Positions 2,397-51,150 of a stretch of DNA of 64,000 nucleotides are shown here, one piece after another. Source of the stretch: Thermoanaerobaculaceae bacterium (lineage in GTDB: Bacteria > Acidobacteriota > Thermoanaerobaculia > Multivoradales > UBA5704); contig CAWAUI010000007.1 of the NCBI GenBank assembly GCA_963785165.1, positions 1,304,725-1,368,724 of the forward strand, written 5' to 3'. The notes under the pieces are model-generated. The model was given only the letters and a program-made list of their open reading frames with translations, was not told the origin of the DNA and did not search any database. Position 1 is the first letter of the stretch. Each line of letters begins with the position of its first letter. The translations under genes and the position numbers were made by a program.

Positions 2397-2477
2397 GCTC
2401 CCCATCCTAATCGATGTCCCGGCCGCCGCTCCCGGAGCTTCTCCCCCTCCTGATCGCGGCACCCGGAAAGCCTCGTG

Positions 2478-2885
2478 CGCCTCCTCCCTCTCTTACCGCG
2501 CTTCCTCCCCTTCTTCCCGCGGCCTTCCCCTCTCTTCCCGCGCCATCCGGTAAGAAGGGGGAGCGAGTCGGCAAGAAGGGGGAGCGGCTCGGCAAGAGAG
2601 GGGAGCGACTCGGCAAGAGAGGGGAGCGACTCGGCAAGAGAGGGGAGCGACTCGGCAAGAGAGGGGAGCGGCTCGGCAAGAAGGGGCGGTGGCGCGGCAG
2701 CGGGGGGAGCGCACGCGGCAAGAGGGGGCGGACCCGTACCCGCCTGGGGGGCTGTCGCGGCAAGGGAGGGAGCCGGCTCGGCAAGAAGGGGGAGCGCCGC
2801 GGCAAGAAGGGGGAACACCGCGGGACGAGCGGTAAGTGACGCACCAAGAGGGGGCGGTGCCCCGGCAAGAGGGGGGAATGCCAGG
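2478..2885. repeat. 21-bp phased tandem array (unit CGGCAAGAGAGGGGAGCGACT): 3 inverted units followed by about 14 direct units
   Basis: Forward units start at 2548, 2569, 2590, 2611, 2632, 2653, 2674, 2695, 2716, 2758, 2779 and 2800 (exact 21-nt phase), then at 2830 and 2863. Reverse-complement units end at 2498, 2519 and 2540. Dyad centre is near 2544. Confidence 0.9.
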
Positions 2886-37613: not shown

Positions 37614-37689
37614 TGGTAGCGCATACGGGATTCGAACCCGTGTTACCGGCGTGAGAGGCCGGCGTCCTGGACCCCTAGACGAATGCGCC
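37614..37689 (-). tRNA. tRNA-Glu (anticodon CUC)
   Basis: Hand-folded 76 nt: GGCGCAU/AUGCGCU acceptor, D-arm GUCU-AGGGGUCC-AGGAC, anticodon loop CU-CUC-AC, T-arm ACGGG-UUCGAAU-CCCGU, A-CCA encoded. Confidence 0.85.
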
Positions 37690-39633: not shown

Positions 39634-40146
39634 ATGATCAAAAACGAGCGCGAGTACCGCATCACCAAAGCCCAAGCGCTGAAATTCGAGCAGGCCCTCT
39701 CACAACTCTCTGGCCCGGGAGAAGGCGCCCAGCTCCATCCTCTGGTGAAAAAGGCACAGGTGGATGCTGTTTGGAGTCAACTGGAAGAACTGAAGGAGGA
39801 GCTGGCCGAATATGAGCTGTTACGGTCCGGGGGATGCTCCGTGTTGTCGCTGGACTCTCTTGGAGAGCTTCCCAAAGCTTTGATCCGTGCCCGCATAGCG
39901 GCTGGTCTGACCCAGCGCGAGCTTGCCGGGAGGCTCGGGCTCAAGGAACAACAAATCCAGCGTTATGAGGCGACGGAGTATGCCTCCGCGGACTTTGCTC
40001 GCCTGAACGAGGTCGCACGGGCTCTGGGTGTCCAGGTGCGAGAAGATCTCTTCCTCAATACTCCTCAACCACTCTCCGAAGAATTACTCCAGCGCCTGAA
40101 GGAAGTGGTGCAACAGACCGTGGTGGCTTTTTCCAAAAACGCGTGA
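39634..40146 (+). CDS. XRE-family HTH protein with N-terminal helical extension (HigA/antitoxin-like architecture)
   Basis: ATG at 39634. MIKNEREYRITKAQALKFEQAL... then the HTH LIRARIAAGLTQRELAGRLGLKEQQIQRYE. Lower GC than its neighbours. Confidence 0.7.
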   Translation: MIKNEREYRITKAQALKFEQALSQLSGPGEGAQLHPLVKKAQVDAVWSQLEELKEELAEYELLRSGGCSVLSLDSLGELPKALIRARIAAGLTQRELAGRLGLKEQQIQRYEATEYASADFARLNEVARALGVQVREDLFLNTPQPLSEELLQRLKEVVQQTVVAFSKNA

Positions 40147-43502: not shown

Positions 43503-43876
43503 ATGAACAAGAAGCGGATTTTCGGACTGATGCTCGCGCTCGCCCTGATGGCCGGGGCCTTCACCCTCGGGATGCCTCAGACCGCTCAGGCCTGCCCCAG
43601 CAACGAGGTGACGACCACGTACTACTCGGACGCCGCCGGTGGCGGGCTTCCTCGACGGACGGCCTCAACCTGATCCTGGCTGTACTGGTAATTAAGCTCG
43701 TCCAGAATACCGCCTTCTTCATCTACACCTCGGGTCCGGCAGGAGGGAGGCGCCTGCCCGTCAACGGCATCGGCATCTTCCTTGGGGAGAACGAGAACGG
43801 CTTCAACGTCGGCTTCATCAAGATCGACAATTGTCCGTCTCCCGGGCGCCCGGTTGCCGCTCCGCTGAAAAGATGA
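43503..43876 (+). pseudogene. Possible small secreted protein; frame change near 43640
   Basis: ATG at 43503 after AAAGGAGAG. Signal peptide MNKKRIFGLMLALALMAGAFTLGMPQTAQA then CPSNEVTTTYYSDAA. A plausible continuation (..DGLNLILAVLVIKLVQNTAFFIYTSGP...GENENGFNVGFIKIDNCPSP..) is in the +2 frame, ending in TGA at 43874-43876. Weak. Confidence 0.3.
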
Positions 43877-44159
43877 TCTTGGCTTCGCCGCGGTCCATTC
43901 CCTTGCCGGGATGGACCGCGGCACCCTCACCCGCCTCCTCCTCGCGGTTCTCGCCCTGCTACGCCTGCGGGGCCGACGGACAGCCGTATAGCGTTGCCGG
44001 GCTTCCGCAACCACCCTCTTGCGTCTGGGGAAAATCTCTGGCACTATTTCTGTCGTTGGAGCGATAACAGCTCGAAGATAGAACCAGAAGAGAGTACCAG
44101 CTCTGGCGTCATGAAGGCGCCGGATTTCGAGCCCAAGCGGCTCAAAGAAGGAGAAGAAG

Positions 44160-44558
44160 ATGTCTCAGGAAACGACGTACGCAGGTATGCAGGGCGACTG
44201 GAGCCAGCTCGTGAGGTCGCTCGAGGCGAATGTCGCCGAGCTCGGCCATCTGGAGGTGTCCCGGATCAAGCTCCGGGGCTTTCTGGCCCAGGCCGAGGAG
44301 ATCAACAATCAGCAGAAGGCGTTGACGGCGAGCAAGCAGGAGGCCTCGCGGCAGCTCAAGCTGATCATGACCGAGGGCCAGCGCCTGTCGAACGCCCTGC
44401 GCACGATGCTTCGGGAGCACTACGGCATCCGCGCCGAGAAGCTCGCCGAGTTCGGACTGCAGCCGTTCCGCGGCCGGACCCGGAAAGCGAGGACGGCCCC
44501 GACGGAGCCCACCACGCCGGCCCCCACTCCCACGGATCCCGCCAATCCCGCCCGCTAG
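44160..44558 (+). CDS. Coiled-coil hypothetical protein (132 aa) with Pro/Thr-rich basic tail
   Basis: ATG after GAAGGAGAAG. Heptad-like QQKALTASKQEASRQLKLIMTEGQRLSNALRTML. Followed by a textbook terminator. Confidence 0.55.
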   Translation: MSQETTYAGMQGDWSQLVRSLEANVAELGHLEVSRIKLRGFLAQAEEINNQQKALTASKQEASRQLKLIMTEGQRLSNALRTMLREHYGIRAEKLAEFGLQPFRGRTRKARTAPTEPTTPAPTPTDPANPAR

Positions 44559-44583
44559 TCTTTCCAGCTTTCCTGTCTTACTT

Positions 44584-44615
44584 GGGGGCGTGCTTCGGCA
44601 CGCCCCCTTTTTTTT
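44584..44615 (+). terminator. Rho-independent terminator
   Basis: GGGGGCGTGC-TTCG-GCACGCCCCC followed by T8. Confidence 0.9.
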
Positions 44616-44616
44616 G

Positions 44617-44980
44617 CATCCGTTGAGCCCAGCGTATCCATAAGCTGGCTCGTCCCAAGGATAGACCCGCCGTTTTATGGATAGGCAGCCCGTCGTATCG
44701 ATAGGCAGCCTGTTGTATCCATGAATTGGTCCGCCGTATCGATAGCTGAGCCGGCGTAAGGATAGGCAGCCCGTTGTATCCATAGACAGGCCAGCGATCC
44801 ATAAGTTGGCTCGCCGTATGGATGGCTGGGCCGTCCTATCGATGGCTGGCCCGTTTTATCCATACGTTGACCCGTCGTATCCATAGCTGAACCGTCGTAT
44901 GGATAGCTGGCTCAGCGATCCATAAGTTGGCCCGTCTTATCGATAGGACGGGCTGTCGTATCCATGAGTTGGGCTGTTTT
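44617..44980. repeat. Array of 18 phased ~20-bp direct repeats (consensus about ATCCATAGCTGGCCCGTCGT), iteron/centromere-like
   Basis: Core AT[CG][CG]AT (or AAGGAT) starts at 44618, 636, 657, 677, 697, 717, 738, 758, 778, 797, 818, 838, 858, 879, 899, 918, 939 and 960. Spacing is 18-21 nt. Confidence 0.9.
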
Positions 44981-45019
44981 GCGCCAAAATGGCTGGCTTA
45001 CTCGTCGATCACTCGCCGG

Positions 45020-45098
45020 TCACAGGCCGGAGCCGTCGAGGTAGCCGGCAACCATGGGCCGGTCCTCCCAGGCGCCGGCGTTCGGAGTCACCGCGTAG
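45020..45098 (-). pseudogene. Orphan 3'-terminal remnant (last 25 codons plus stop) of a paralog of the gene at 51166..52014
   Basis: 69/79 nt identical to 51166-51244 by hand alignment. Encodes YAVTPNAGAWEDRPMVAGYLDGSGL* versus YAVTPNAGTWEYRPMVAGFLDGPGL*. Similarity stops where the SDR gene ends. Confidence 0.65.
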
Positions 45099-45915
45099 CC
45101 TGGCGCTTGCGGAAAGCCCTCGCCGTCTGGCGGTTGATGGCCACGGCGATGGCGGGGTGGAGGCGGGTGAGCCACCAGAGGAGGCGGGCGTAGAAGGGGA
45201 AGACGATCAGGGCCTTGTTGCGCTCGACGCCGTGCAGGACGGCGCGGGCGGCGGCGTCCACTGGCACGAACTTGAAGGGGATGAGCGAGCGGATGCCGTG
45301 CATGTCCGTGCCGGCATAGGTGCCGGATTCGAAGATGCGGGTCTCGATGTAGGCCGGGCAGACGGCGCTGACTTTGACGCCCAAGTCCGCCCCTTCGGCC
45401 CGCAGGGTGAGGGAGAGACCCACCACGGCGAACTTGCTGGTGGCGTAAGGGATGGAGAGCGCCAGGCCGGCGATCCCCGCGAGCGAGGCGACGTTGACGA
45501 TGTGCCCCGAGCCCTGGCGGACCATGCGGGCATAGGCGGCGGTGGTGCCGTGGATGATGCCGCCGAGGTTGACGTCCAGCACTCTGCGCCAGTGGTCGAG
45601 GGGGAGCTTCTGAGCTTCGCCGGCCGCCGCGAGGCCGGCGTTGTTGAAGAGGTAGTCGAGGCGCCCCAGGGAGGCGGCCGTCTCATCGAGCAGGCGCTCG
45701 AAGGCGGCGGCGTCCCGCACGTCCAGGCCCGCCGCGGTGGCCCGCCCCCCGGCCGCCACGATGGCGGCGGCCACGGCCCGGGCGCCGGACTCGTCGAGGT
45801 CCGTCACCACCACCCGGGCGCCGCGCCGGCCCAGCTCCGCCGCGAGAGCGCGGCCGAGGCCGGAAGCGGCGCCGGTGACCACGGCCACGGCGTCCTGGAA
45901 CGGGGCTGCTGACAT
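45088..45915 (-). CDS. Short-chain dehydrogenase/reductase (classical SDR)
   Basis: ATG at 45915 after GGGAGG. VTGAASGLGRA cofactor motif. YATSKFAV catalytic YxxxK. Intact. Confidence 0.85.
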   Translation of the reverse strand: MSAAPFQDAVAVVTGAASGLGRALAAELGRRGARVVVTDLDESGARAVAAAIVAAGGRATAAGLDVRDAAAFERLLDETAASLGRLDYLFNNAGLAAAGEAQKLPLDHWRRVLDVNLGGIIHGTTAAYARMVRQGSGHIVNVASLAGIAGLALSIPYATSKFAVVGLSLTLRAEGADLGVKVSAVCPAYIETRIFESGTYAGTDMHGIRSLIPFKFVPVDAAARAVLHGVERNKALIVFPFYARLLWWLTRLHPAIAVAINRQTARAFRKRQATR

Positions 45916-45964: not shown

Positions 45965-46426
45965 TCAGCCCTGTTTCGTCTTTGCCTTGCGAAGAGAGCG
46001 GAGATCTGCCCTGTCTTGATCCCGCCCGGCGTGCTCTTTTTCTCGGATGAGGTCGTCGAGGGAAAGATAGTGGGCGTCTACATCCCCGAATCGGGCGTCT
46101 ACTCGGGACTCCCAGGCGGAGTCGAAGGTCTGGCGGCCGGCGAGGCGCGAGAGGAGGTCGATCCGGGTCGGCGCCACACCGAGTTGGATGATCCGGCCGA
46201 GAGTCGTCAGATCTTCCGCCGTCAATCCCAGATCGCTTCCCAGGAAGGTTCGGATCGCGGCGAGAACCCGTTCCGCGTTGGCGGGGGTAGGCTCAATGAA
46301 AAGGTCAAAGTCCTTGGTCGCGCGGGGCCGGGCGTGGAGAGCGACCGCGTGGGCTCCCACGATGAGATATCGGGCGCCGGACGCGTTCAATGACTCGACA
46401 AACTCTTCGTAGTCGCGGTATTTCAT
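45965..46426 (-). CDS. Nucleotidyltransferase-fold protein (DUF2204/DUF6036-like)
   Basis: MKYRDYEEFVESLNASGARYLIVGAHAVALHARPRATKDFDLFIEP... The ATG is immediately preceded by TGA (TGAATG junction). Confidence 0.5.
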   Translation of the reverse strand: MKYRDYEEFVESLNASGARYLIVGAHAVALHARPRATKDFDLFIEPTPANAERVLAAIRTFLGSDLGLTAEDLTTLGRIIQLGVAPTRIDLLSRLAGRQTFDSAWESRVDARFGDVDAHYLSLDDLIREKEHAGRDQDRADLRSLRKAKTKQG

Positions 46427-46604
46427 TCACGCCTCGCGCCTTGAGGGAGGAGAGCAGGCAGTCTTCGACGGCGCGGACGCGCTCCTCCGGGGTCATGTCC
46501 TCGTACCAGAACCGGAAATCTTCCTCTTCGGCCTCGTCCGTGGAGCCGACCTTGGCGACCCAGACCCGCCCATGCCGATCCGTGGCCTGTCCCCTTTTCT
46601 CCAT
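46305..46604 (-). CDS. Small acidic protein upstream of the nucleotidyltransferase-fold gene; real end probably near 46427 (frame uncertain)
   Basis: MEKRGQATDRHGRVWVAKVGSTDEAEEEDFRFWYEDMTPEERVRAVEDCLLSSLKARG looks protein-like. The remaining about 40 codons overlap the next gene and are Arg-rich (out-of-frame look). Confidence 0.35.
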   Translation of the reverse strand: MEKRGQATDRHGRVWVAKVGSTDEAEEEDFRFWYEDMTPEERVRAVEDCLLSSLKARGVNEIPRLRRVCRVIERVRRPISHRGSPRGRSPRPAPRDQGL

Positions 46605-46639
46605 GGACGGATCGTAGCACCGTGCCTCATCCCTGTAAG

Positions 46640-47200
46640 ATGATCCCCATGTTCCATAAGAGATCGAATCGGGTATGGACCACGCTTCTGGCCACGGTAT
46701 GCCTCTGGAGCGCCACGGCCGCCCTGGCGCAGGCTCGGCGGACGGAGGAGCAGACGCGGAAGTTGGAGAGCGGGCTCGCGGCGATCCTGCGGGAGGGGCT
46801 CTCGCGGGAGACGGTCGAGAGCCAGCTGGGGAAGCTCAAGGTGGCGTCCGGAGTGCGCTCGGTGAAGGGGCTGGACTGGGAGCTCCGGGTGGAGCCTGCC
46901 GGGAAGAGGGACGCCGTGCGGAAGGCGGTCTTCGAGACCCGGAACCCCATCGCGGGCGGCGTTCTCCTCGAAGCCCTGGGCGTGGATGAGCCGGGCGTGG
47001 TCTCCACGGACGCCCAACAGAAGGACCGGTGGATTCTCGATCTCAAAACGAGAATGCCCCCGGCGGCCAAGAGCTTCGAGGTCCGGATCTACCTGGAGCC
47101 CGGGAGCCCCATGAGGGAAATCGACGGGCGGTGGAACGCCAATCCCATCTGGCGGGCCAGCAGCTATCCGGTCGTTCGGGTGGAGATCGGGCGGCCCTGA
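46640..47200 (+). CDS. Secreted hypothetical protein (186 aa)
   Basis: ORF 46622..47200, ATG at 46640. Signal-like VWTTLLATVCLWSATAALAQA. No motif recognised. Confidence 0.5.
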   Translation: MIPMFHKRSNRVWTTLLATVCLWSATAALAQARRTEEQTRKLESGLAAILREGLSRETVESQLGKLKVASGVRSVKGLDWELRVEPAGKRDAVRKAVFETRNPIAGGVLLEALGVDEPGVVSTDAQQKDRWILDLKTRMPPAAKSFEVRIYLEPGSPMREIDGRWNANPIWRASSYPVVRVEIGRP

Positions 47201-47297
47201 GGATCGTCCGAAGCCGGCAATGCGGTCCCGCCAGGAGCGGCGAGGCGGGGGATTTTGGGGTTGCCTCGGCGTCCGCCTCAGTGGCCGTCCCAACGGC

Positions 47298-47367
47298 CGC
47301 CTCAACCGCCTCATCCGCCTCCGCCGCCTCATCCGCCTCAACGCCTCATCCGCCTCAACGCCTCCGC
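47298..47367. repeat. 8 tandem units of an 8-9-bp microsatellite (CGCCTCAWC/CGCCTCCGC)
   Basis: Units read directly at 47298, 47307, 47316, 47325, 47334, 47342, 47351 and 47359. Confidence 0.8.
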
Positions 47368-47373
47368 CGACAC

Positions 47374-47421
47374 CCCAGGGTTGCACCCTGGGCTACGGGT
47401 AGGACGCCCTGCCGGGCTCGC
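47374..47421. repeat. Solo copy of the snap-back element arm (same family as 761-924)
   Basis: Its reverse complement differs from the arm at 762-809 at one position by my alignment. Confidence 0.8.
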
Positions 47422-47536
47422 CGCCGCGATGTTCACCAAGATATGTGCCCTGCTCGGCTCTCTGGGTGCGCTTCGCGCAGTCCTTCTCGCGTCAACGGGC
47501 CTTCCTTCTGTGACTCCAGTCTGTCCTGATGCGGGT

Positions 47537-47660
47537 CCTCCCTCACTTGCCGCGGCAGCTCCCCCTCTTGAGCTGCTATTTCCCCTTCTTATCGCGTCTC
47601 TGGATAAGAGAGGGGAGGTCTATCCCAAGAAGGGGCAGACCCGCGGTAAGAGAGGGGAGC
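47537..47660. repeat. Second dyad array of the 21-bp GGGGAGC-type unit (3 inverted plus 3 direct units), 128 nt upstream of the KAP NTPase ATG
   Basis: Inverted units end at 47552, 47573 and 47594 (21-nt phase). Direct units start near 47602, 47624 and 47644 (GATAAGAGAGGGGAGG, CCCAAGAAGGGGCAG, CGGTAAGAGAGGGGAGC). Confidence 0.8.
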
Positions 47661-47787
47661 ACCCGGGGGCCGTCACAAAGAGGTGGGCTGTGTCGCCTAA
47701 TCCATAAGGCCGGTCCCCTGTATGCCCGTGAAGGGTGTCTTCAAGGGCGGGGCCTGTGGCCGGATCGCTTCCAGAGGAGGTTGAAGA

Positions 47788-50700
47788 ATGTCCGCGTCTA
47801 AACAAGCCCGCCCATCTCGGCGGCCGTCTGGTCCTCTTCCCCGGTCGCTCTGGTTCGGGGCGGCCCTGTTCGTGTTCCTGGCCTGCTCGTGGATCGCCTT
47901 TCGCCAGGAACCGCATCCGGATGCCTACCGCCAGTCCAGTCTCCTGACGGCGGATTGGTGGTTCTACCCGGTCGAATTCAATGCGCCCCAGCGGCTGCCG
48001 CTGGTCCGGGCGGACCTCAACGATGTCTTCGCCTTGAAAGGGACGGGACACGTCTGGGTGGTGGGCGGCGGCGGCCTCATCCTGCACAGCCCGGACTACG
48101 GGAAGCACTGGGAGCGGCAGTATCTGGTCGATTCCAAGAACCTCTCAGCGCCGAATCCCGTTCATTTCCGGTCCGGCTCTCCGAGAAGGGCAGCGACCGA
48201 ACCTGCTGCGGGATCCTGGTGGCGTCGCATGTTGCCAGGCCGGCCGTTGGAGGGGGCCACTCTGCTCGGGTTGATCACCGGCGGGGGGCCGGCCCTTGGG
48301 CAGGAACAGGCCCAGCAGCCGATCGATGACAAGAGCCAGGCCGTTCCCCCGCCCCGCCCCTTGACTCCGAACTCAGGTGTCAGTCCTGACGTGGCGTCTC
48401 CACAGGGCATGGACCCTTCAGGGGTCAATCCTGCTGGAATCAACGAAGCGGCGGTCGACCCACCAGTGCAGCAGAGGCCCTTGCCTGATGGAAGAAACGA
48501 ATCGCAGCGCAGGATTCTTGCAGATCCGATCCCAGAGGTTCTAGCGCTTAGAGCCCTCGCGAATTCTGCGCTACAAAGCGTACATTTTGTCGATGCTCAG
48601 AATGGCTGGGTTGCCGGAGAGAATGGGGCTCTGTTCAATACGAACAATGGCGGAAAAACTTGGGAATGGATAAGTGCTCTATCCAGATCTGCTACCACCT
48701 ATGCCGTTTTTTTGGAGGACAGGTCACAAGGCTGGTTGCTGGGTGAATACGGGTTTCTCAAGTTTAATCAATCTGACAATGGTTGGGATTTGAAGGTAAT
48801 TCATGAAGCCAGTCGAGTCAAGCCCGATACCTGCTTCATCATGGGCTCGGACAGATATCTTTGCCTCAGTAAAACCGGGCGAGGCTACTCCACTGAAGAT
48901 CTAGAGTCTTACGAAGGCGAAGGTGTTCTCGATGTAGACCAGAATGGGCGGAGTGGCCAGAAAATTAAGTGGTCGGCTGTTCTTACGGATCGTAGCGTAC
49001 GTCTAATGTTACAGCTCGGCCAAACCAGGGTATGGCCTGTTAAAGGTGGACTGTGGGCTACCCTCAGCTTTACTGGTCCGCAGCAGGGATGGGTTGCGGG
49101 CGCCAGGGGGGCTATGCTGACTACTGAAGACAGGGGTCAGACCTGGCGGAGGGTGACGCGTAAGTGGCAAAACACCGAGCTCAACGAAGGCTACTACTCG
49201 ATCTACCCCGCCCCCTGGTACTACCTCAGCCTCGGCCTTGTCGGCCTTCTCTTCGTTCCAGCTTTAAGGCGCCCACAGCCCCAGGTCATCTCCGAGTCGG
49301 CGGCGGATCTCCTCGTTTCCGATCAACCCATCGGGGCTCCCGAGGGTGACAAATTTGATTTCAGCTCGGTCGCCCTCGGTCTCTCGCGGTTCCTGCGCAA
49401 TGAGAAGACCATGGCACCTCTAACGATCGCGGTGACCGGCGAGTGGGGGACCGGCAAGAGCTCGCTCATGAATCTCCTGCGGGGCGATCTTGCCCGATAC
49501 GGTTTCCGGCCGGTCTGGTTCAACGCCTGGCATCATCAGAAAGAGGAGCACCTGTTGGCCTCGCTCCTCGAGATGGTCCGTTCTCAGGCAATTCCTTCGT
49601 GGTGGCGGCCTGAGGGAGCGATTTTCCGCTTCCAGTTGCTGAGGATACGCTGGTCGCGGTTCTGGCCTTTGATTGCCTTCGTCGTACTCGTGTTCTCTTT
49701 CTCGTTCGGCTATCTACGTGCTCATCCCGAAAGGCTGGATACCGCCTGGGAGAGCCTGAAAAGCCTCGCTGAGCCCATGAAATGGTTGGAGACGGAGGCG
49801 CATGCGGTGGCAGGACAGAAGGGAGGGGAACGCGCACCCTGGATCATCTTCTTCCTGAGCACTTTAGGTCTCCTCATCTCCCTCTGGAAAGGACTCCAGG
49901 GCTTCGGGGTCAATCCCGCCAGCCTCCTTGCGAAGGATTCGGGCCGGGCGCGGGTGCGCGACCTTGAAAACCTGACGGGTTTCCGCCATCAATTCGCGAC
50001 GGAGTTCAAGGACATCACGCAGGCGCTTAATCCGCGGACGATGCTGGTGCTGATCGACGATCTGGACCGGTGCCGGCCGGAGATGGTTCTGGAAGTCCTG
50101 GAGGCGGTGAATTTCCTCATTTCCTCCGGGGATTGCTTCGTCGTGCTCGGTATGGCCCGAGAGCGGGTGGTGCGGTGCGTGGGACTGAGCTTCAAGGACG
50201 TAGCGAGCGAGTTGCTGCTTACGGAGGCTCGTGAGGATGAGAAAGAGCTTTCATCAGAGGATCTGGCCCGTAAGAGGCGGATCGAATTCGCTCGGCAGTA
50301 CCTGGAAAAGCTGATCAACATCGAGGTGCCGGTGCCGACGCCGACGGATCAGCAGGCGCGCCGGTTGTTCCAGGCCAACGTTCCGCAAGAGGAGACGCCG
50401 GACGACATCCGCTACCGCCGTTGGAGCAGGGCCTGGGGGATGGCCCGGAAAGCCCTTCCCACGGCAGCGGTCGCTGGCCTGCTCGTGCTGGGTTTCTGGT
50501 TCGGATCCACGCGTCCTGCTCACCAGGAGGTAAAGGTTGAGACAGGCGCGCCGGTCCCCACCGGTGCTCCGACCGGGACGGACGCCGGCTCCGTGGCGAC
50601 GAAGGTCCCCGCTGACGGCAAGATCCCCGTGGGACCGGCGGAGATGGAGGCAGGGCAGGAGGCAAGCCTACCCGTGCTGGCCGTCCTCGTTCTCGCCGCG

Positions 50701-51150
50701 CTGATGGTGGGGCTCGGGATTTGGCGGCTGTCCATCCCCCCAGGGGTGGTGATCCGTGATTCCGCGGAGTTCGAGGAGGCGCTGGCGACGTGGCACCCGT
50801 TGATCTTTTCGACTCGCAAGACTCCACGATCGATCAAGCGGTTTCTGAACCGGGTGAGGTACCTTGCGATGCTCCAGCGGTCGCAAAGCCCGGAGCCGAC
50901 CCGATGGCAGCAGATCCTCCGCTGGCTCCGCCTTGCAAAAGGTCCCGAGTTGGTTGCGAGCGGTAAGGCGCCAGCCATTCCCGAGCGAGCACTGGTGGCG
51001 CTCGCCGCGATCGATTATTGCCGGGCGGAATGGCTGCAGTTGGAGGTCAAGGATATGCCGGAGGAAATCAGAAGAAATCTTGAAGGACTCCCCCTCGACT
51101 CCTACCGTGAGGCCTACGGCAGGATGTCGAAGGGGATTTATTTGAGCTGA
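47788..51150 (+). CDS. Membrane KAP-family P-loop NTPase (1120 aa) with N-terminal extracytoplasmic Ycf48/BNR-like beta-propeller
   Basis: ATG at 47788 after GAGGAGG. TM SLWFGAALFVFLACSWIAF. Propeller blades GHVWVVGGGGLILHSPDYGKHWERQ, NGWVAGENGALFNTNNGGKTWEWI, QGWVAGARGAMLTTEDRGQTWRRV. Walker A TGEWGTGKSS; TM hairpin inserted in the NTPase; Walker B MLVLIDDLDRCRPE; KAP C-terminal motif TPRSIKRFLNRVRY. Intact. Confidence 0.8.
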   Translation: MSASKQARPSRRPSGPLPRSLWFGAALFVFLACSWIAFRQEPHPDAYRQSSLLTADWWFYPVEFNAPQRLPLVRADLNDVFALKGTGHVWVVGGGGLILHSPDYGKHWERQYLVDSKNLSAPNPVHFRSGSPRRAATEPAAGSWWRRMLPGRPLEGATLLGLITGGGPALGQEQAQQPIDDKSQAVPPPRPLTPNSGVSPDVASPQGMDPSGVNPAGINEAAVDPPVQQRPLPDGRNESQRRILADPIPEVLALRALANSALQSVHFVDAQNGWVAGENGALFNTNNGGKTWEWISALSRSATTYAVFLEDRSQGWLLGEYGFLKFNQSDNGWDLKVIHEASRVKPDTCFIMGSDRYLCLSKTGRGYSTEDLESYEGEGVLDVDQNGRSGQKIKWSAVLTDRSVRLMLQLGQTRVWPVKGGLWATLSFTGPQQGWVAGARGAMLTTEDRGQTWRRVTRKWQNTELNEGYYSIYPAPWYYLSLGLVGLLFVPALRRPQPQVISESAADLLVSDQPIGAPEGDKFDFSSVALGLSRFLRNEKTMAPLTIAVTGEWGTGKSSLMNLLRGDLARYGFRPVWFNAWHHQKEEHLLASLLEMVRSQAIPSWWRPEGAIFRFQLLRIRWSRFWPLIAFVVLVFSFSFGYLRAHPERLDTAWESLKSLAEPMKWLETEAHAVAGQKGGERAPWIIFFLSTLGLLISLWKGLQGFGVNPASLLAKDSGRARVRDLENLTGFRHQFATEFKDITQALNPRTMLVLIDDLDRCRPEMVLEVLEAVNFLISSGDCFVVLGMARERVVRCVGLSFKDVASELLLTEAREDEKELSSEDLARKRRIEFARQYLEKLINIEVPVPTPTDQQARRLFQANVPQEETPDDIRYRRWSRAWGMARKALPTAAVAGLLVLGFWFGSTRPAHQEVKVETGAPVPTGAPTGTDAGSVATKVPADGKIPVGPAEMEAGQEASLPVLAVLVLAALMVGLGIWRLSIPPGVVIRDSAEFEEALATWHPLIFSTRKTPRSIKRFLNRVRYLAMLQRSQSPEPTRWQQILRWLRLAKGPELVASGKAPAIPERALVALAAIDYCRAEWLQLEVKDMPEEIRRNLEGLPLDSYREAYGRMSKGIYLS

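What the first reader, a model, noticed from the sequence alone, without database searches (positions are those of the whole stretch)
44160..44980. 364-bp array of 18 phased ~20-bp repeats (iteron/centromere-like) directly behind a terminated coiled-coil ORF
Core hexamers AT[CG][CG]AT comprise ATCCAT, its complement ATGGAT, palindromic ATCGAT and two AAGGAT variants. They recur 18 times at 18-21-nt spacing (positions listed in the feature), each followed by a degenerate GC-rich tail. The consensus is roughly ATCCATAGCTGGCCCGTCGT. There is a higher-order ~61-bp GG-CG-CC triplet pattern (44677-44737 versus 44818-44878). The array is AT-richer than its surroundings and non-coding. It starts 1 nt after a perfect intrinsic terminator (44584-44615) of a 132-aa coiled-coil protein with a basic Pro/Thr tail. 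It ends about 40 nt before an orphan gene remnant at 45020. Arrays of about 20-bp direct repeats at two-helical-turn spacing are the hallmark of plasmid/phage iterons and partition centromeres (established). Here no Rep, ParA/ParB or integrase is present, so it may be a relic of an integrated replicon. It may also be the binding platform of an unrecognised DNA-binding protein, with the adjacent coiled-coil ORF as the obvious candidate. A novel chromosomal organising site is another option.
Basis: partly seen in the sequence, partly recalled or inferred. Interest (0 to 1): 0.7.

Follow-up and report, generated by a model that had tools for sequence, protein, structure and literature searches.

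The report
Conserved small-gene plus tandem-repeat module
The 20-bp repeat array is real and is the downstream half of an undescribed two-part unit, a small coiled-coil protein gene followed by its own tandem array, that recurs several times per genome in one class of soil Acidobacteria and most likely acts as a double-stranded DNA binding platform, not as a plasmid relic.

Summary
Window 44616-44980 holds 17 clear units plus one degenerate 19-21-bp unit, each built on A[TA][CG][CG]AT. The array sits right behind a strong terminator of a 132-aa helical protein.

The array is not a one-off. A genome scan confirmed 196 relatives of the protein; the best 80 loci, from 38 Thermoanaerobaculia/Holophagales-labelled assemblies, were kept. 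In 72 of these 80, the DNA after the gene's terminator has a 19-21-bp period, against 1 of 138 control windows that reached the same match threshold at that period. No neighbouring gene is conserved.

The module is a promoter-like site, a two-hairpin leader, the ORF, a terminator and the array.

- Unit sequence differs between paralogous modules.
- It co-diverges with the gene.
- It is conserved beyond synonymous-site saturation.
- It matches unit for unit (17 and 17) in an 85%-identical relative with unrelated flanks.

The arrays show no strand bias and no compensatory covariation, and the core hexamers are closed under reverse complement. This favours phased dsDNA sites over RNA hairpins.

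Iteron, partition centromere, REP and CRISPR membership all fail. The linked protein is the prime binder candidate, but this is unproven. Similar arrays also occur without the gene.

The parts
44019..44047 (+). Promoter-like site: TTGCGT (44019-44024), 17-nt spacer, CACTAT (44042-44047). Homology with relatives begins here.
   Evidence: The window/L003/L004 alignment becomes alignable exactly from the -35 region. Many other loci carry TTGACA at the same place. The consensus scan does not call it, so it is inferred.
44103..44153 (+). Conserved 5' leader RNA. Hairpin 1 is 44103-44110 paired with 44116-44123. Hairpin 2 is 44129-44133 paired with 44139-44143. The Shine-Dalgarno AAGGAG lies at 44148-44153.
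   Evidence: In a 45-locus alignment, 93.7% of cells are paired and 9 of 13 pairs change on both sides; 0 of 500 shuffles reach the observed values. There is no Rfam match.
44160..44558 (+). 132-aa protein: a helical hairpin/coiled coil, an invariant C-terminal ...EKLAEFGLQPFRGR.RKA motif, and a disordered Pro/Thr tail. It founds a large uncharacterised family.
   Evidence: 701 homologues. 1,276 clusters at 50% identity, and the 150 listed are short stand-alone proteins of 76-210 aa, mostly 120-140. AlphaFold pLDDT 79. No Pfam, NCBIfam, PADLOC, PHROG, PDB-sequence or PDB-fold match.
44584..44615 (+). Intrinsic terminator: GGGGGCGTGC-TTCG-GCACGCCCCC followed by T8.
   Evidence: An equivalent terminator lies 5-37 nt after the stop codon in 78 of 82 loci, with differing stem sequences.
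44616..44980 (.). Tandem array: one degenerate unit plus 17 clear units of 19-21 bp. Consensus CCGTCGT-ATSSAT-AGCTGGC, with a short palindromic core TAT-SS-ATA.
   Evidence: It is orthologous unit for unit to the 17-unit array of L003 at 83.7% identity. Homology with relatives stops at the array end.

Best explanation
The array is the cis-acting half of a self-contained, vertically inherited two-part module in Thermoanaerobaculia-type Acidobacteria. The module is a promoter-like site, a structured leader, a small coiled-coil protein gene, a strong terminator, and then 10-37 tandem units of 19-21 bp.

I propose that the array works as double-stranded DNA. It would be a row of sequence-specific sites, often dyad-symmetric, spaced about two helical turns apart. 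Such a row lets many copies of a protein load side by side on one stretch of chromosome and build an extended nucleoprotein complex.

The most economical candidate for that protein is the product of the linked gene. It would oligomerise through its long helices and touch DNA through the invariant basic ...QPFRGR.RKA segment. Each paralogous protein would pair with its own array sequence.

**Shown:** the module, its conservation, co-divergence of gene and array, selection on unit sequence, and the DNA-like (strand-neutral) symmetry.

**Inferred:** that a protein binds the array, that it is this protein, and what the complex does. Possible roles are chromosome organisation or anchoring, local titration of the protein, or a barrier between convergent transcription units.
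For: 1. **Linkage.** In 72 of 80 loci the best self-match lag after the gene is 19-21 bp. 56 of 80 reach a match of at least 0.45, against 1 of 138 control windows. TRF finds arrays of 15-37 units.
2. **Nothing else is conserved.** No neighbouring gene is shared across the loci. Homology between the window and L003 starts at the -35 region and stops at the array end.
3. **Co-inheritance.** Array 7-mer similarity rises with protein identity: 0.05 below 55% aa identity, 0.26 at 65-80%, 0.70 above 80%. Pairs from the same genome are no more alike than pairs from different genomes.
4. **Selection on unit sequence.** The unit consensus stays 0.81-0.95 identical where four-fold sites are 0.60-0.63 and the flanks are about 0.55. 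Random pairs give 0.63 +/- 0.08. Window and L003 both have 17 units in register.
5. **DNA rather than RNA.**
   - The plus strand is the more stable in only 24 of 57 arrays (p=0.33), and G/T skew is about 0.
   - Symmetric positions show no compensatory covariation (mean z 0.27), and G:T mismatches (479) roughly equal A:C (538).
   - The leader hairpins of the same loci do show clear covariation and U.G pairs.
   - The core set ATCCAT/ATGGAT/ATCGAT is closed under reverse complement.
   - A strong terminator precedes the array in 78 of 82 loci.
   - No promoter-like site lies in or beside the window's array.
6. **Dyad symmetry.** Whole-unit dyad symmetry is significant in 32 of 53 arrays.
7. 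**Position-independent linkage.** In L022 the array lies upstream of the gene instead of downstream.
Against: - There is no experimental or structural evidence that the protein binds DNA. It matches no DNA-binding family or fold.
- Its most conserved part, the C-terminal basic motif, hardly varies, while array sequences differ widely. A specificity determinant is therefore not evident.
- Own-array 8-mers are not enriched in the module's own promoter or leader.
- Two high-GC metagenome contigs, L116 and L156, carry very similar TATSSATA arrays without any family gene.
- The window holds a second 21-bp array, 2477-2882, that is not linked to a family member.
- Whole-unit dyad symmetry is absent from the window's own array (z=-0.2).
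- The strand-bias and covariation tests have limited power on repeats that evolve in concert.
Confidence: 0.45

Rival explanations
1. The array is transcribed, either by read-through or from its own promoter, into a multi-hairpin RNA. This RNA would partner or antagonise the protein, as a repeat RNA does in type III toxin-antitoxin systems, or it would act as an RNA scaffold or sponge.
For: Arrays fold far better than mononucleotide shuffles (mean z -8.5). Many units are short inverted repeats. The gene's leader carries conserved hairpins, so the protein could be an RNA binder that regulates itself. L022 has the array-then-gene order seen in ToxIN-type loci.
Against: There is no consistent strand: the plus strand is the more stable in 24 of 57 arrays. 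There is no G.U over A.C excess (479 vs 538) and no compensatory covariation, whereas the leader shows both. A very strong terminator lies between gene and array in 78 of 82 loci. No promoter-like site is present, and there is no Rfam match. The window's own units are not hairpins.
Confidence: 0.17
2. The array is a binding platform or barrier for a host factor encoded elsewhere, such as a nucleoid protein, an IHF-like protein or a transcription factor. One example would be an insulator or roadblock between convergent transcription units. The linked protein would not be the binder.
For: Similar arrays exist without the gene (L116, L156; window 2477-2882). The downstream neighbour is convergent in 28 of 38 scored loci. 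The protein's conserved motif does not vary with array sequence. Some window units (TATCCATAAGTTG) resemble the IHF consensus WATCAANNNNTTR; this is from my own reading and memory and was not tested.
Against: Array sequences differ between paralogous modules in one genome and track the linked gene rather than the genome. That is hard to reconcile with one shared host factor. No second gene is conserved nearby.
Confidence: 0.15
3. The array is a functionless minisatellite. It would arise by slippage or unequal exchange and hitch-hike at the 3' end of this gene family.
For: Higher-order repeats and whole-unit indels show that unequal exchange is active (L014, L022, L004). The array is slightly less conserved than third codon positions between window and L003 (83.7% vs 89.7%). 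A few loci lack a clear array.
Against: The array is present after about 90% of family genes across 38 assemblies, with the period held at 19-21 bp. The unit consensus is conserved where synonymous sites are saturated and flanks are random. Unit number and order are preserved between species. Control regions lack such arrays.
Confidence: 0.13
4. The array is the iterons or partition centromere of an integrated plasmid or phage replicon.
For: The direct repeats are about 20 bp at two-turn spacing, and the stretch is AT-richer than its surroundings.
Against: No Rep, ParA, ParB or integrase gene is linked in any of the 80 loci. The protein and the array have no match in plasmid collections, and the protein has none in phage collections. 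Assemblies carry several chromosomal copies with different unit sequences. The flanks are ordinary chromosomal genes.
Confidence: 0.03
5. The array is a REP/BIME-type cluster of palindromic elements spread by a RAYT-like tyrosine transposase.
For: The location is extragenic and after a terminator, many units are palindromic, and IS200-like Y1 transposase ORFs occur within 5 kb in 5 loci.
Against: The unit sequence is locus-specific rather than genome-wide. There are no other copies in the 64-kb window, and same-genome arrays are no more alike than arrays from different genomes. The Y1 ORFs lie at variable distance and on either side. Units are strictly head to tail, not alternating dispersed copies.
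Confidence: 0.04

Closest known systems
sopC-SopB of plasmid F (type Ia partition centromere). Comparison from established knowledge, not tested here.
   Same: It is a tandem array of direct repeats, each containing a short inverted-repeat binding site, placed immediately downstream of the gene for the protein that binds it. Many protein copies load on the array.
   Different: sopC has 12 units of 43 bp, and SopB is a ParB-family HTH protein that works with the SopA ATPase on a plasmid. Here the units are 19-21 bp, the protein is an unrelated 132-aa helical protein, no NTPase is linked, and the module is chromosomal and multi-copy.
parC-ParR (plasmid R1) and similar small centromere-binding proteins (ParG, omega, TubR) with iterated sites. 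From established knowledge.
   Same: A small protein sits next to phased short direct repeats next to its own gene, and cooperative binding builds a helical nucleoprotein filament.
   Different: Those proteins are RHH or winged-helix dimers and always come with a ParM, ParF or TubZ motor. Their arrays are short (about 4-10 sites) and usually overlap the promoter. None of this is seen here.
Plasmid or phage iterons
   Same: Direct repeats of about 19-22 bp spaced roughly two helical turns apart.
   Different: No Rep gene, DnaA boxes or AT-rich unwinding element were seen. There are 17-37 units instead of 3-7, several arrays occur per chromosome, and plasmid databases hold no homologue.
REP/BIME extragenic palindromes
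   Same: Palindromic short units clustered after terminators, often between convergent genes.
   Different: REPs are one sequence family dispersed genome-wide. These arrays are private to each locus and co-inherited with one gene.
ToxI-type repeat RNA of type III toxin-antitoxin systems
   Same: A tandem repeat and a single protein gene are separated by a terminator and form a two-part module.
   Different: ToxI repeats are 36 nt, lie upstream of the toxin gene, and are strand-specific structured RNA. Here the array lies downstream of the terminator and shows no RNA signature, and the protein is not an endoribonuclease fold.

Membership tests
Plasmid/phage iterons (oriV) | Adjacent or linked rep (initiator) gene | tested here: not met
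   No conserved neighbour in 80 loci. The Pfam scan of window neighbours shows SDR, nucleotidyltransferase, KAP NTPase and HTH genes but no Rep.
Plasmid/phage iterons (oriV) | Located on a plasmid or phage replicon, or on a recognisable integrated one | tested here: not met
   The protein has no match in 72,556 plasmids or 50,697 phages, and the array has none in plasmids. Assemblies carry several chromosomal copies.
Plasmid/phage iterons (oriV) | Direct repeats of about 17-22 bp in helical phase | tested here: met
   Spacing of 19-21 bp.
Partition centromere (parS/parC/sopC) | Linked ParA, ParM or TubZ NTPase and a ParB, ParR or TubR-type binding protein | tested here: not met
   No such gene is conserved nearby. 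The linked protein matches no Pfam, NCBIfam or PDB family.
Partition centromere (parS/parC/sopC) | Array of repeated sites next to the gene of its binding protein | tested here: inconclusive
   Adjacency and co-inheritance are shown. Binding is not testable here.
CRISPR array | Repeats separated by unique spacers; cas genes or a leader | tested here: not met
   Units abut head to tail without spacers. No cas-like neighbour is present.
REP/BIME | The same palindromic unit dispersed at many loci of one genome | tested here: not met
   No copy elsewhere in the 64 kb. Arrays of the same assembly are no more alike than arrays from different assemblies. A whole-genome census was not possible.
Type III toxin-antitoxin repeat RNA | Strand-specific structured repeat RNA upstream of an endoRNase toxin | tested here: not met
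   The array is downstream of a terminator. There is no strand bias or covariation. The protein is a helical hairpin with no fold match. There is no PADLOC hit apart from one weak LmuB match (E=0.006) for one homologue, P0091.
H-NS/Lsr2/MvaT-type AT-hook-like nucleoid proteins | Homology to PF00816, PF11774 or MvaT, or a fold with an N-terminal oligomerisation domain plus a C-terminal Q/RGR DNA-binding domain | tested here: not met
   No Pfam or PDB match. A coiled coil followed by an invariant 'RGR' is a resemblance recalled from memory only.
Known RNA families (Rfam 15) | Covariance-model match at gathering score | tested here: not met
   Only 3 tRNAs in the window. Only sub-threshold terminator-like hits occur in 43800-45300.

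The most novel reading that the evidence does not exclude
Thermoanaerobaculia chromosomes would carry several orthogonal 'protein plus private tandem array' modules. Each small coiled-coil paralogue would polymerise on its own 300-700-bp array of phased sites and form a discrete nucleoprotein body. This would be a motor-less chromosomal landmark or organiser system with no described counterpart, built from a protein family and a DNA grammar that are both new.
Probability: 0.3. Interest if true: 0.85.

Novelty: new variant of a known kind. Interest (0 to 1): 0.7.

Why it matters
The linked protein family has more than 1,200 clusters at 50% identity. Across the 80 loci examined, about 90% carry a long, selected, non-coding tandem array after the gene. 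The family has no annotation and no literature found here.

If the protein binds its array, this is a new and compact protein-DNA recognition system with many naturally orthogonal pairs. It would be useful for understanding chromosome organisation in an uncultured, abundant soil lineage, and as a source of orthogonal DNA-labelling parts.

If the arrays prove to be RNA, it is a new repeat-RNA/protein module. Either way, the result removes the 'integrated plasmid relic' reading and defines a testable unit with exact boundaries.

Tried and rejected
- **Exact-sequence look-ups** of the window's ORF, the downstream SDR and P0001 found nothing.
- **Protein annotation** gave nothing usable: Pfam, NCBIfam, PADLOC, PHROGs, PDB sequence profile and Foldseek against PDB.
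- **Rfam** gave only tRNAs and sub-threshold terminator look-alikes.
- **Conserved neighbours:** none were found. An IS200-like Y1 transposase appears in 5 loci, but at variable distance and side, so it was rejected as a partner.
- **Autoregulatory operator:** own-array 8-mers are not enriched in the module's own promoter or leader (12 of 54 loci against a 17% background).
- **RNA strand test:** no consistent strand emerged. My first version with dinucleotide shuffles timed out.
Most hits were unrelated lower-GC satellites, and none encoded the family. A stricter pattern missed even the closest relatives.
- **Literature searches** found nothing relevant.
- **Whole-unit dyad symmetry** is common in relatives but absent from the window's own array. 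It cannot be the universal requirement.

Full report
**Observation**

Window 44616-44980 is a head-to-tail array. Seventeen hexamers A[TA][CG][CG]AT lie 19-21 nt apart from 44636 to 44960: 8 ATCCAT, 3 ATGGAT, 4 ATCGAT and 2 AAGGAT. A degenerate unit at the 5' end makes 18.

- Fifteen of the window's 36 AT[CG][CG]AT hexamers fall in these 345 bp.
- The degenerate 20-mer matches only inside the array: 5 matches against 0.32 expected.
- TRF reports periods of 20, 21, 61 and 80.
- The array is GC-poorer than its surroundings, 0.55 against 0.65-0.72.
- It is non-coding, because units of 19, 20 and 21 bp are mixed.

The array lies between convergent genes. On the plus strand is a 132-aa ORF (44160-44558) with a good Shine-Dalgarno sequence and a textbook terminator (44584-44615). 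On the minus strand is a complete short-chain dehydrogenase (45088-45915).

**The array belongs to a conserved module**

The ORF has no Pfam, NCBIfam, PADLOC, PHROG, PDB-sequence or PDB-fold match. It does have 701 homologues in one search and 1,276 clusters at 50% identity in another. The 150 listed are short stand-alone proteins of 76-210 aa, mostly 120-140. AlphaFold gives a helical hairpin (helices 7-23, 29-88, 93-98) followed by a disordered tail. The C-terminal ...EKLAEFGLQPFRGR.RKA motif is nearly invariant.

Two homologues in unrelated genomic contexts showed the same layout at once: gene, terminator, then a 20-bp array.

A scan of one genome per species confirmed 196 relatives, and the best 80 loci were kept. 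They come from 38 assemblies labelled Thermoanaerobaculia, Thermoanaerobaculaceae, Acidobacteriota or Holophagales, with several copies per assembly.

- In 72 of 80 loci the best self-match lag in the 700 bp after the stop codon is 19-21 bp.
- 56 of 80 reach a match of at least 0.45, against 1 of 138 control windows.
- TRF resolves arrays of about 10-37 units, 200-740 bp long.
- No neighbouring gene is conserved.
- A strong terminator lies 5-37 nt after the stop codon in 78 of 82 loci.
- The 5' leader carries two hairpins just upstream of the Shine-Dalgarno sequence, with clear covariation.

Between the window and its 85%-identical relative L003, homology starts at the -35 region and ends exactly at the array end. 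The flanks are unrelated.

**How the arrays evolve**

Unit sequence differs widely between modules. Examples are TACGCCGGCCCGCCAAACTT, GCGTGACTCCTGAACCTTCAG, GGACGGAGCCGCTCCGTCCCG and CAGATAAGCTTATCCGGCG.

Array similarity tracks identity of the linked protein: 0.05, 0.26 and 0.70 across identity bands. It is not higher for arrays from the same genome. The arrays are therefore private to each module and inherited with it, not a genome-wide repeat family.

Window and L003 each have 17 units in register at 83.7% identity. L004 differs by whole-unit deletions.

The unit consensus stays 0.81-0.95 identical in pairs whose four-fold sites are near saturation (0.60-0.63) and whose post-array flanks align at chance level, about 0.55. 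Random consensus pairs give 0.63 +/- 0.08. This points to purifying selection on the unit sequence. Higher-order repeats in L014 and L022 show that unequal exchange is also active.

**DNA or RNA?**

Many units are inverted repeats, and arrays fold much better than shuffles (mean z -8.5). Whole-unit dyad symmetry beats a column-permutation null in 32 of 53 arrays. Several results argue against RNA hairpins:

- Relative to the gene there is no preferred strand. The plus strand is the more stable in 24 of 57 arrays (p=0.33), and skews are near zero.
- Symmetric positions show no compensatory covariation (mean z 0.27 over 98 axes).
- G:T and A:C mismatches are balanced, 479 against 538.
- The leader hairpins of the same loci do show covariation and many U.G pairs.
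- The window's core set ATCCAT/ATGGAT/ATCGAT is closed under reverse complement. Between window and L003 the centre flips freely, including GG to CC, while the AT..AT frame stays fixed.
- A strong terminator precedes the array, and no promoter-like site is found.
- In L022 the array lies upstream of the gene, so the linkage does not depend on a fixed transcriptional order.

Together this favours a double-stranded DNA element made of phased sites.

**Mechanism proposed**

A row of sequence-specific sites about two helical turns apart would recruit many copies of a protein into an extended complex. The linked gene product is the obvious candidate. It is the only thing co-inherited with the array, it is predicted to be an elongated helical oligomeriser, and it has an invariant basic RGR segment. 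This is inference.

Against it:
- The protein matches no DNA-binding family.
- Its conserved basic motif does not vary with array sequence.
- There is no cognate site in its own promoter.
- Window-like arrays occur without the gene in two metagenome contigs, L116 and L156.
- A second, unlinked 21-bp array lies in the window at 2477-2882.

What the complex would do is open. It could organise or anchor the chromosome, titrate the protein, or insulate the gene from convergent transcription. The downstream neighbour is convergent in 28 of 38 scored loci, by a rough heuristic.

**Comparison with known systems**

In anatomy the module is closest to a centromere-like site next to the gene of its binding protein (sopC-SopB, parC-ParR) and to iterons. 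Every defining feature beyond 'phased direct repeats' fails:
- There is no Rep, no partition NTPase and no ParB/ParR-type protein.
- There are no plasmid or phage homologues.
- Several copies occur per chromosome.

REP/BIME, CRISPR and type III toxin-antitoxin repeat RNA also fail their tests. Literature searches found no description.

**Verdict**

The 'integrated replicon relic' reading is rejected. The 'platform for the adjacent protein' reading is supported by strong comparative linkage but remains unproven. The finding is a previously undescribed gene-array module conserved across a bacterial class.

Noticed in passing
window 44103-44153 (and the same position in about 45 related loci): A conserved two-hairpin 5' leader lies just upstream of the Shine-Dalgarno sequence of the small gene: CCGGCGyC-loop-GrCGCCGG, then GAGCC-n4-GGCTC. 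93.7% of cells are paired and 9 of 13 pairs change on both sides. It is absent from Rfam and is probably a cis-regulatory RNA.
   Followed up: partly
window 2477-2882: A second, unrelated tandem array of 21-bp units (GGCAAGAGAGGGGAGCGACTC, about 16 copies) is preceded by about 3 units in the inverted orientation. On the minus strand it follows a 90-aa ORF without a Pfam match (3195-2923) and a hairpin, and it lies upstream of a DUF3179 gene. No family member is nearby.
   Followed up: partly
L022 4443-4911: In this relative the array (about 23 units of GATAAGCTTATCT.., with a 101-bp higher-order repeat) lies immediately upstream of the gene, ending about 90 nt before the start codon. No array follows the terminator.
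   Followed up: partly
L116 2062-2480; L156 3737-3955: Two high-GC metagenome contigs carry arrays very like the window's (TATCSATAAGTCGGCTCGACC, alternating 20 and 21 bp) and share a pre-array sequence (GAGCTCyGCCCAGAACGG). Neither has a family gene within the contig.
   Followed up: partly
window 43960-44010 and 44981-45100 vs L003: The module is 84-95% identical to L003 segment by segment, except 82% over the promoter and leader. Both flanks are unalignable and the neighbouring genes differ, so the whole module has moved or been exchanged as a unit. No terminal repeats or recombinase were seen.
   Followed up: no
L014 6437-7390, L049 1462-2382 and three other loci: IS200-like (HUH/Y1, RAYT-like) transposase ORFs recur within 5 kb of modules, at variable distance and on either side. 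They are probably just abundant in these genomes.
   Followed up: partly
L141 1446-1800, L118 3401-3640, L119, L197: Lower-GC metagenome contigs, many from samples Ga0307488 and Ga0307489, carry near-perfect 20-21-bp TATCGATA satellites such as TATCGATAGATCATGATWGA x16. They are unrelated to the Acidobacteria module.
   Followed up: no
window 45965-51150 and 39634-40146: The surroundings look like a variable or defence-type island: a DUF2204/DUF6036 nucleotidyltransferase, a 1120-aa KAP-family P-loop NTPase with BNR repeats, an HTH protein, and tRNA-Glu at 37614-37689.
   Followed up: no
80 related loci: The module tends to be antisense to both neighbours: the upstream neighbour is divergent in 32 of 47 scored loci and the downstream neighbour convergent in 28 of 38. 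This rests on a rough GC3-based ORF heuristic.
   Followed up: partly
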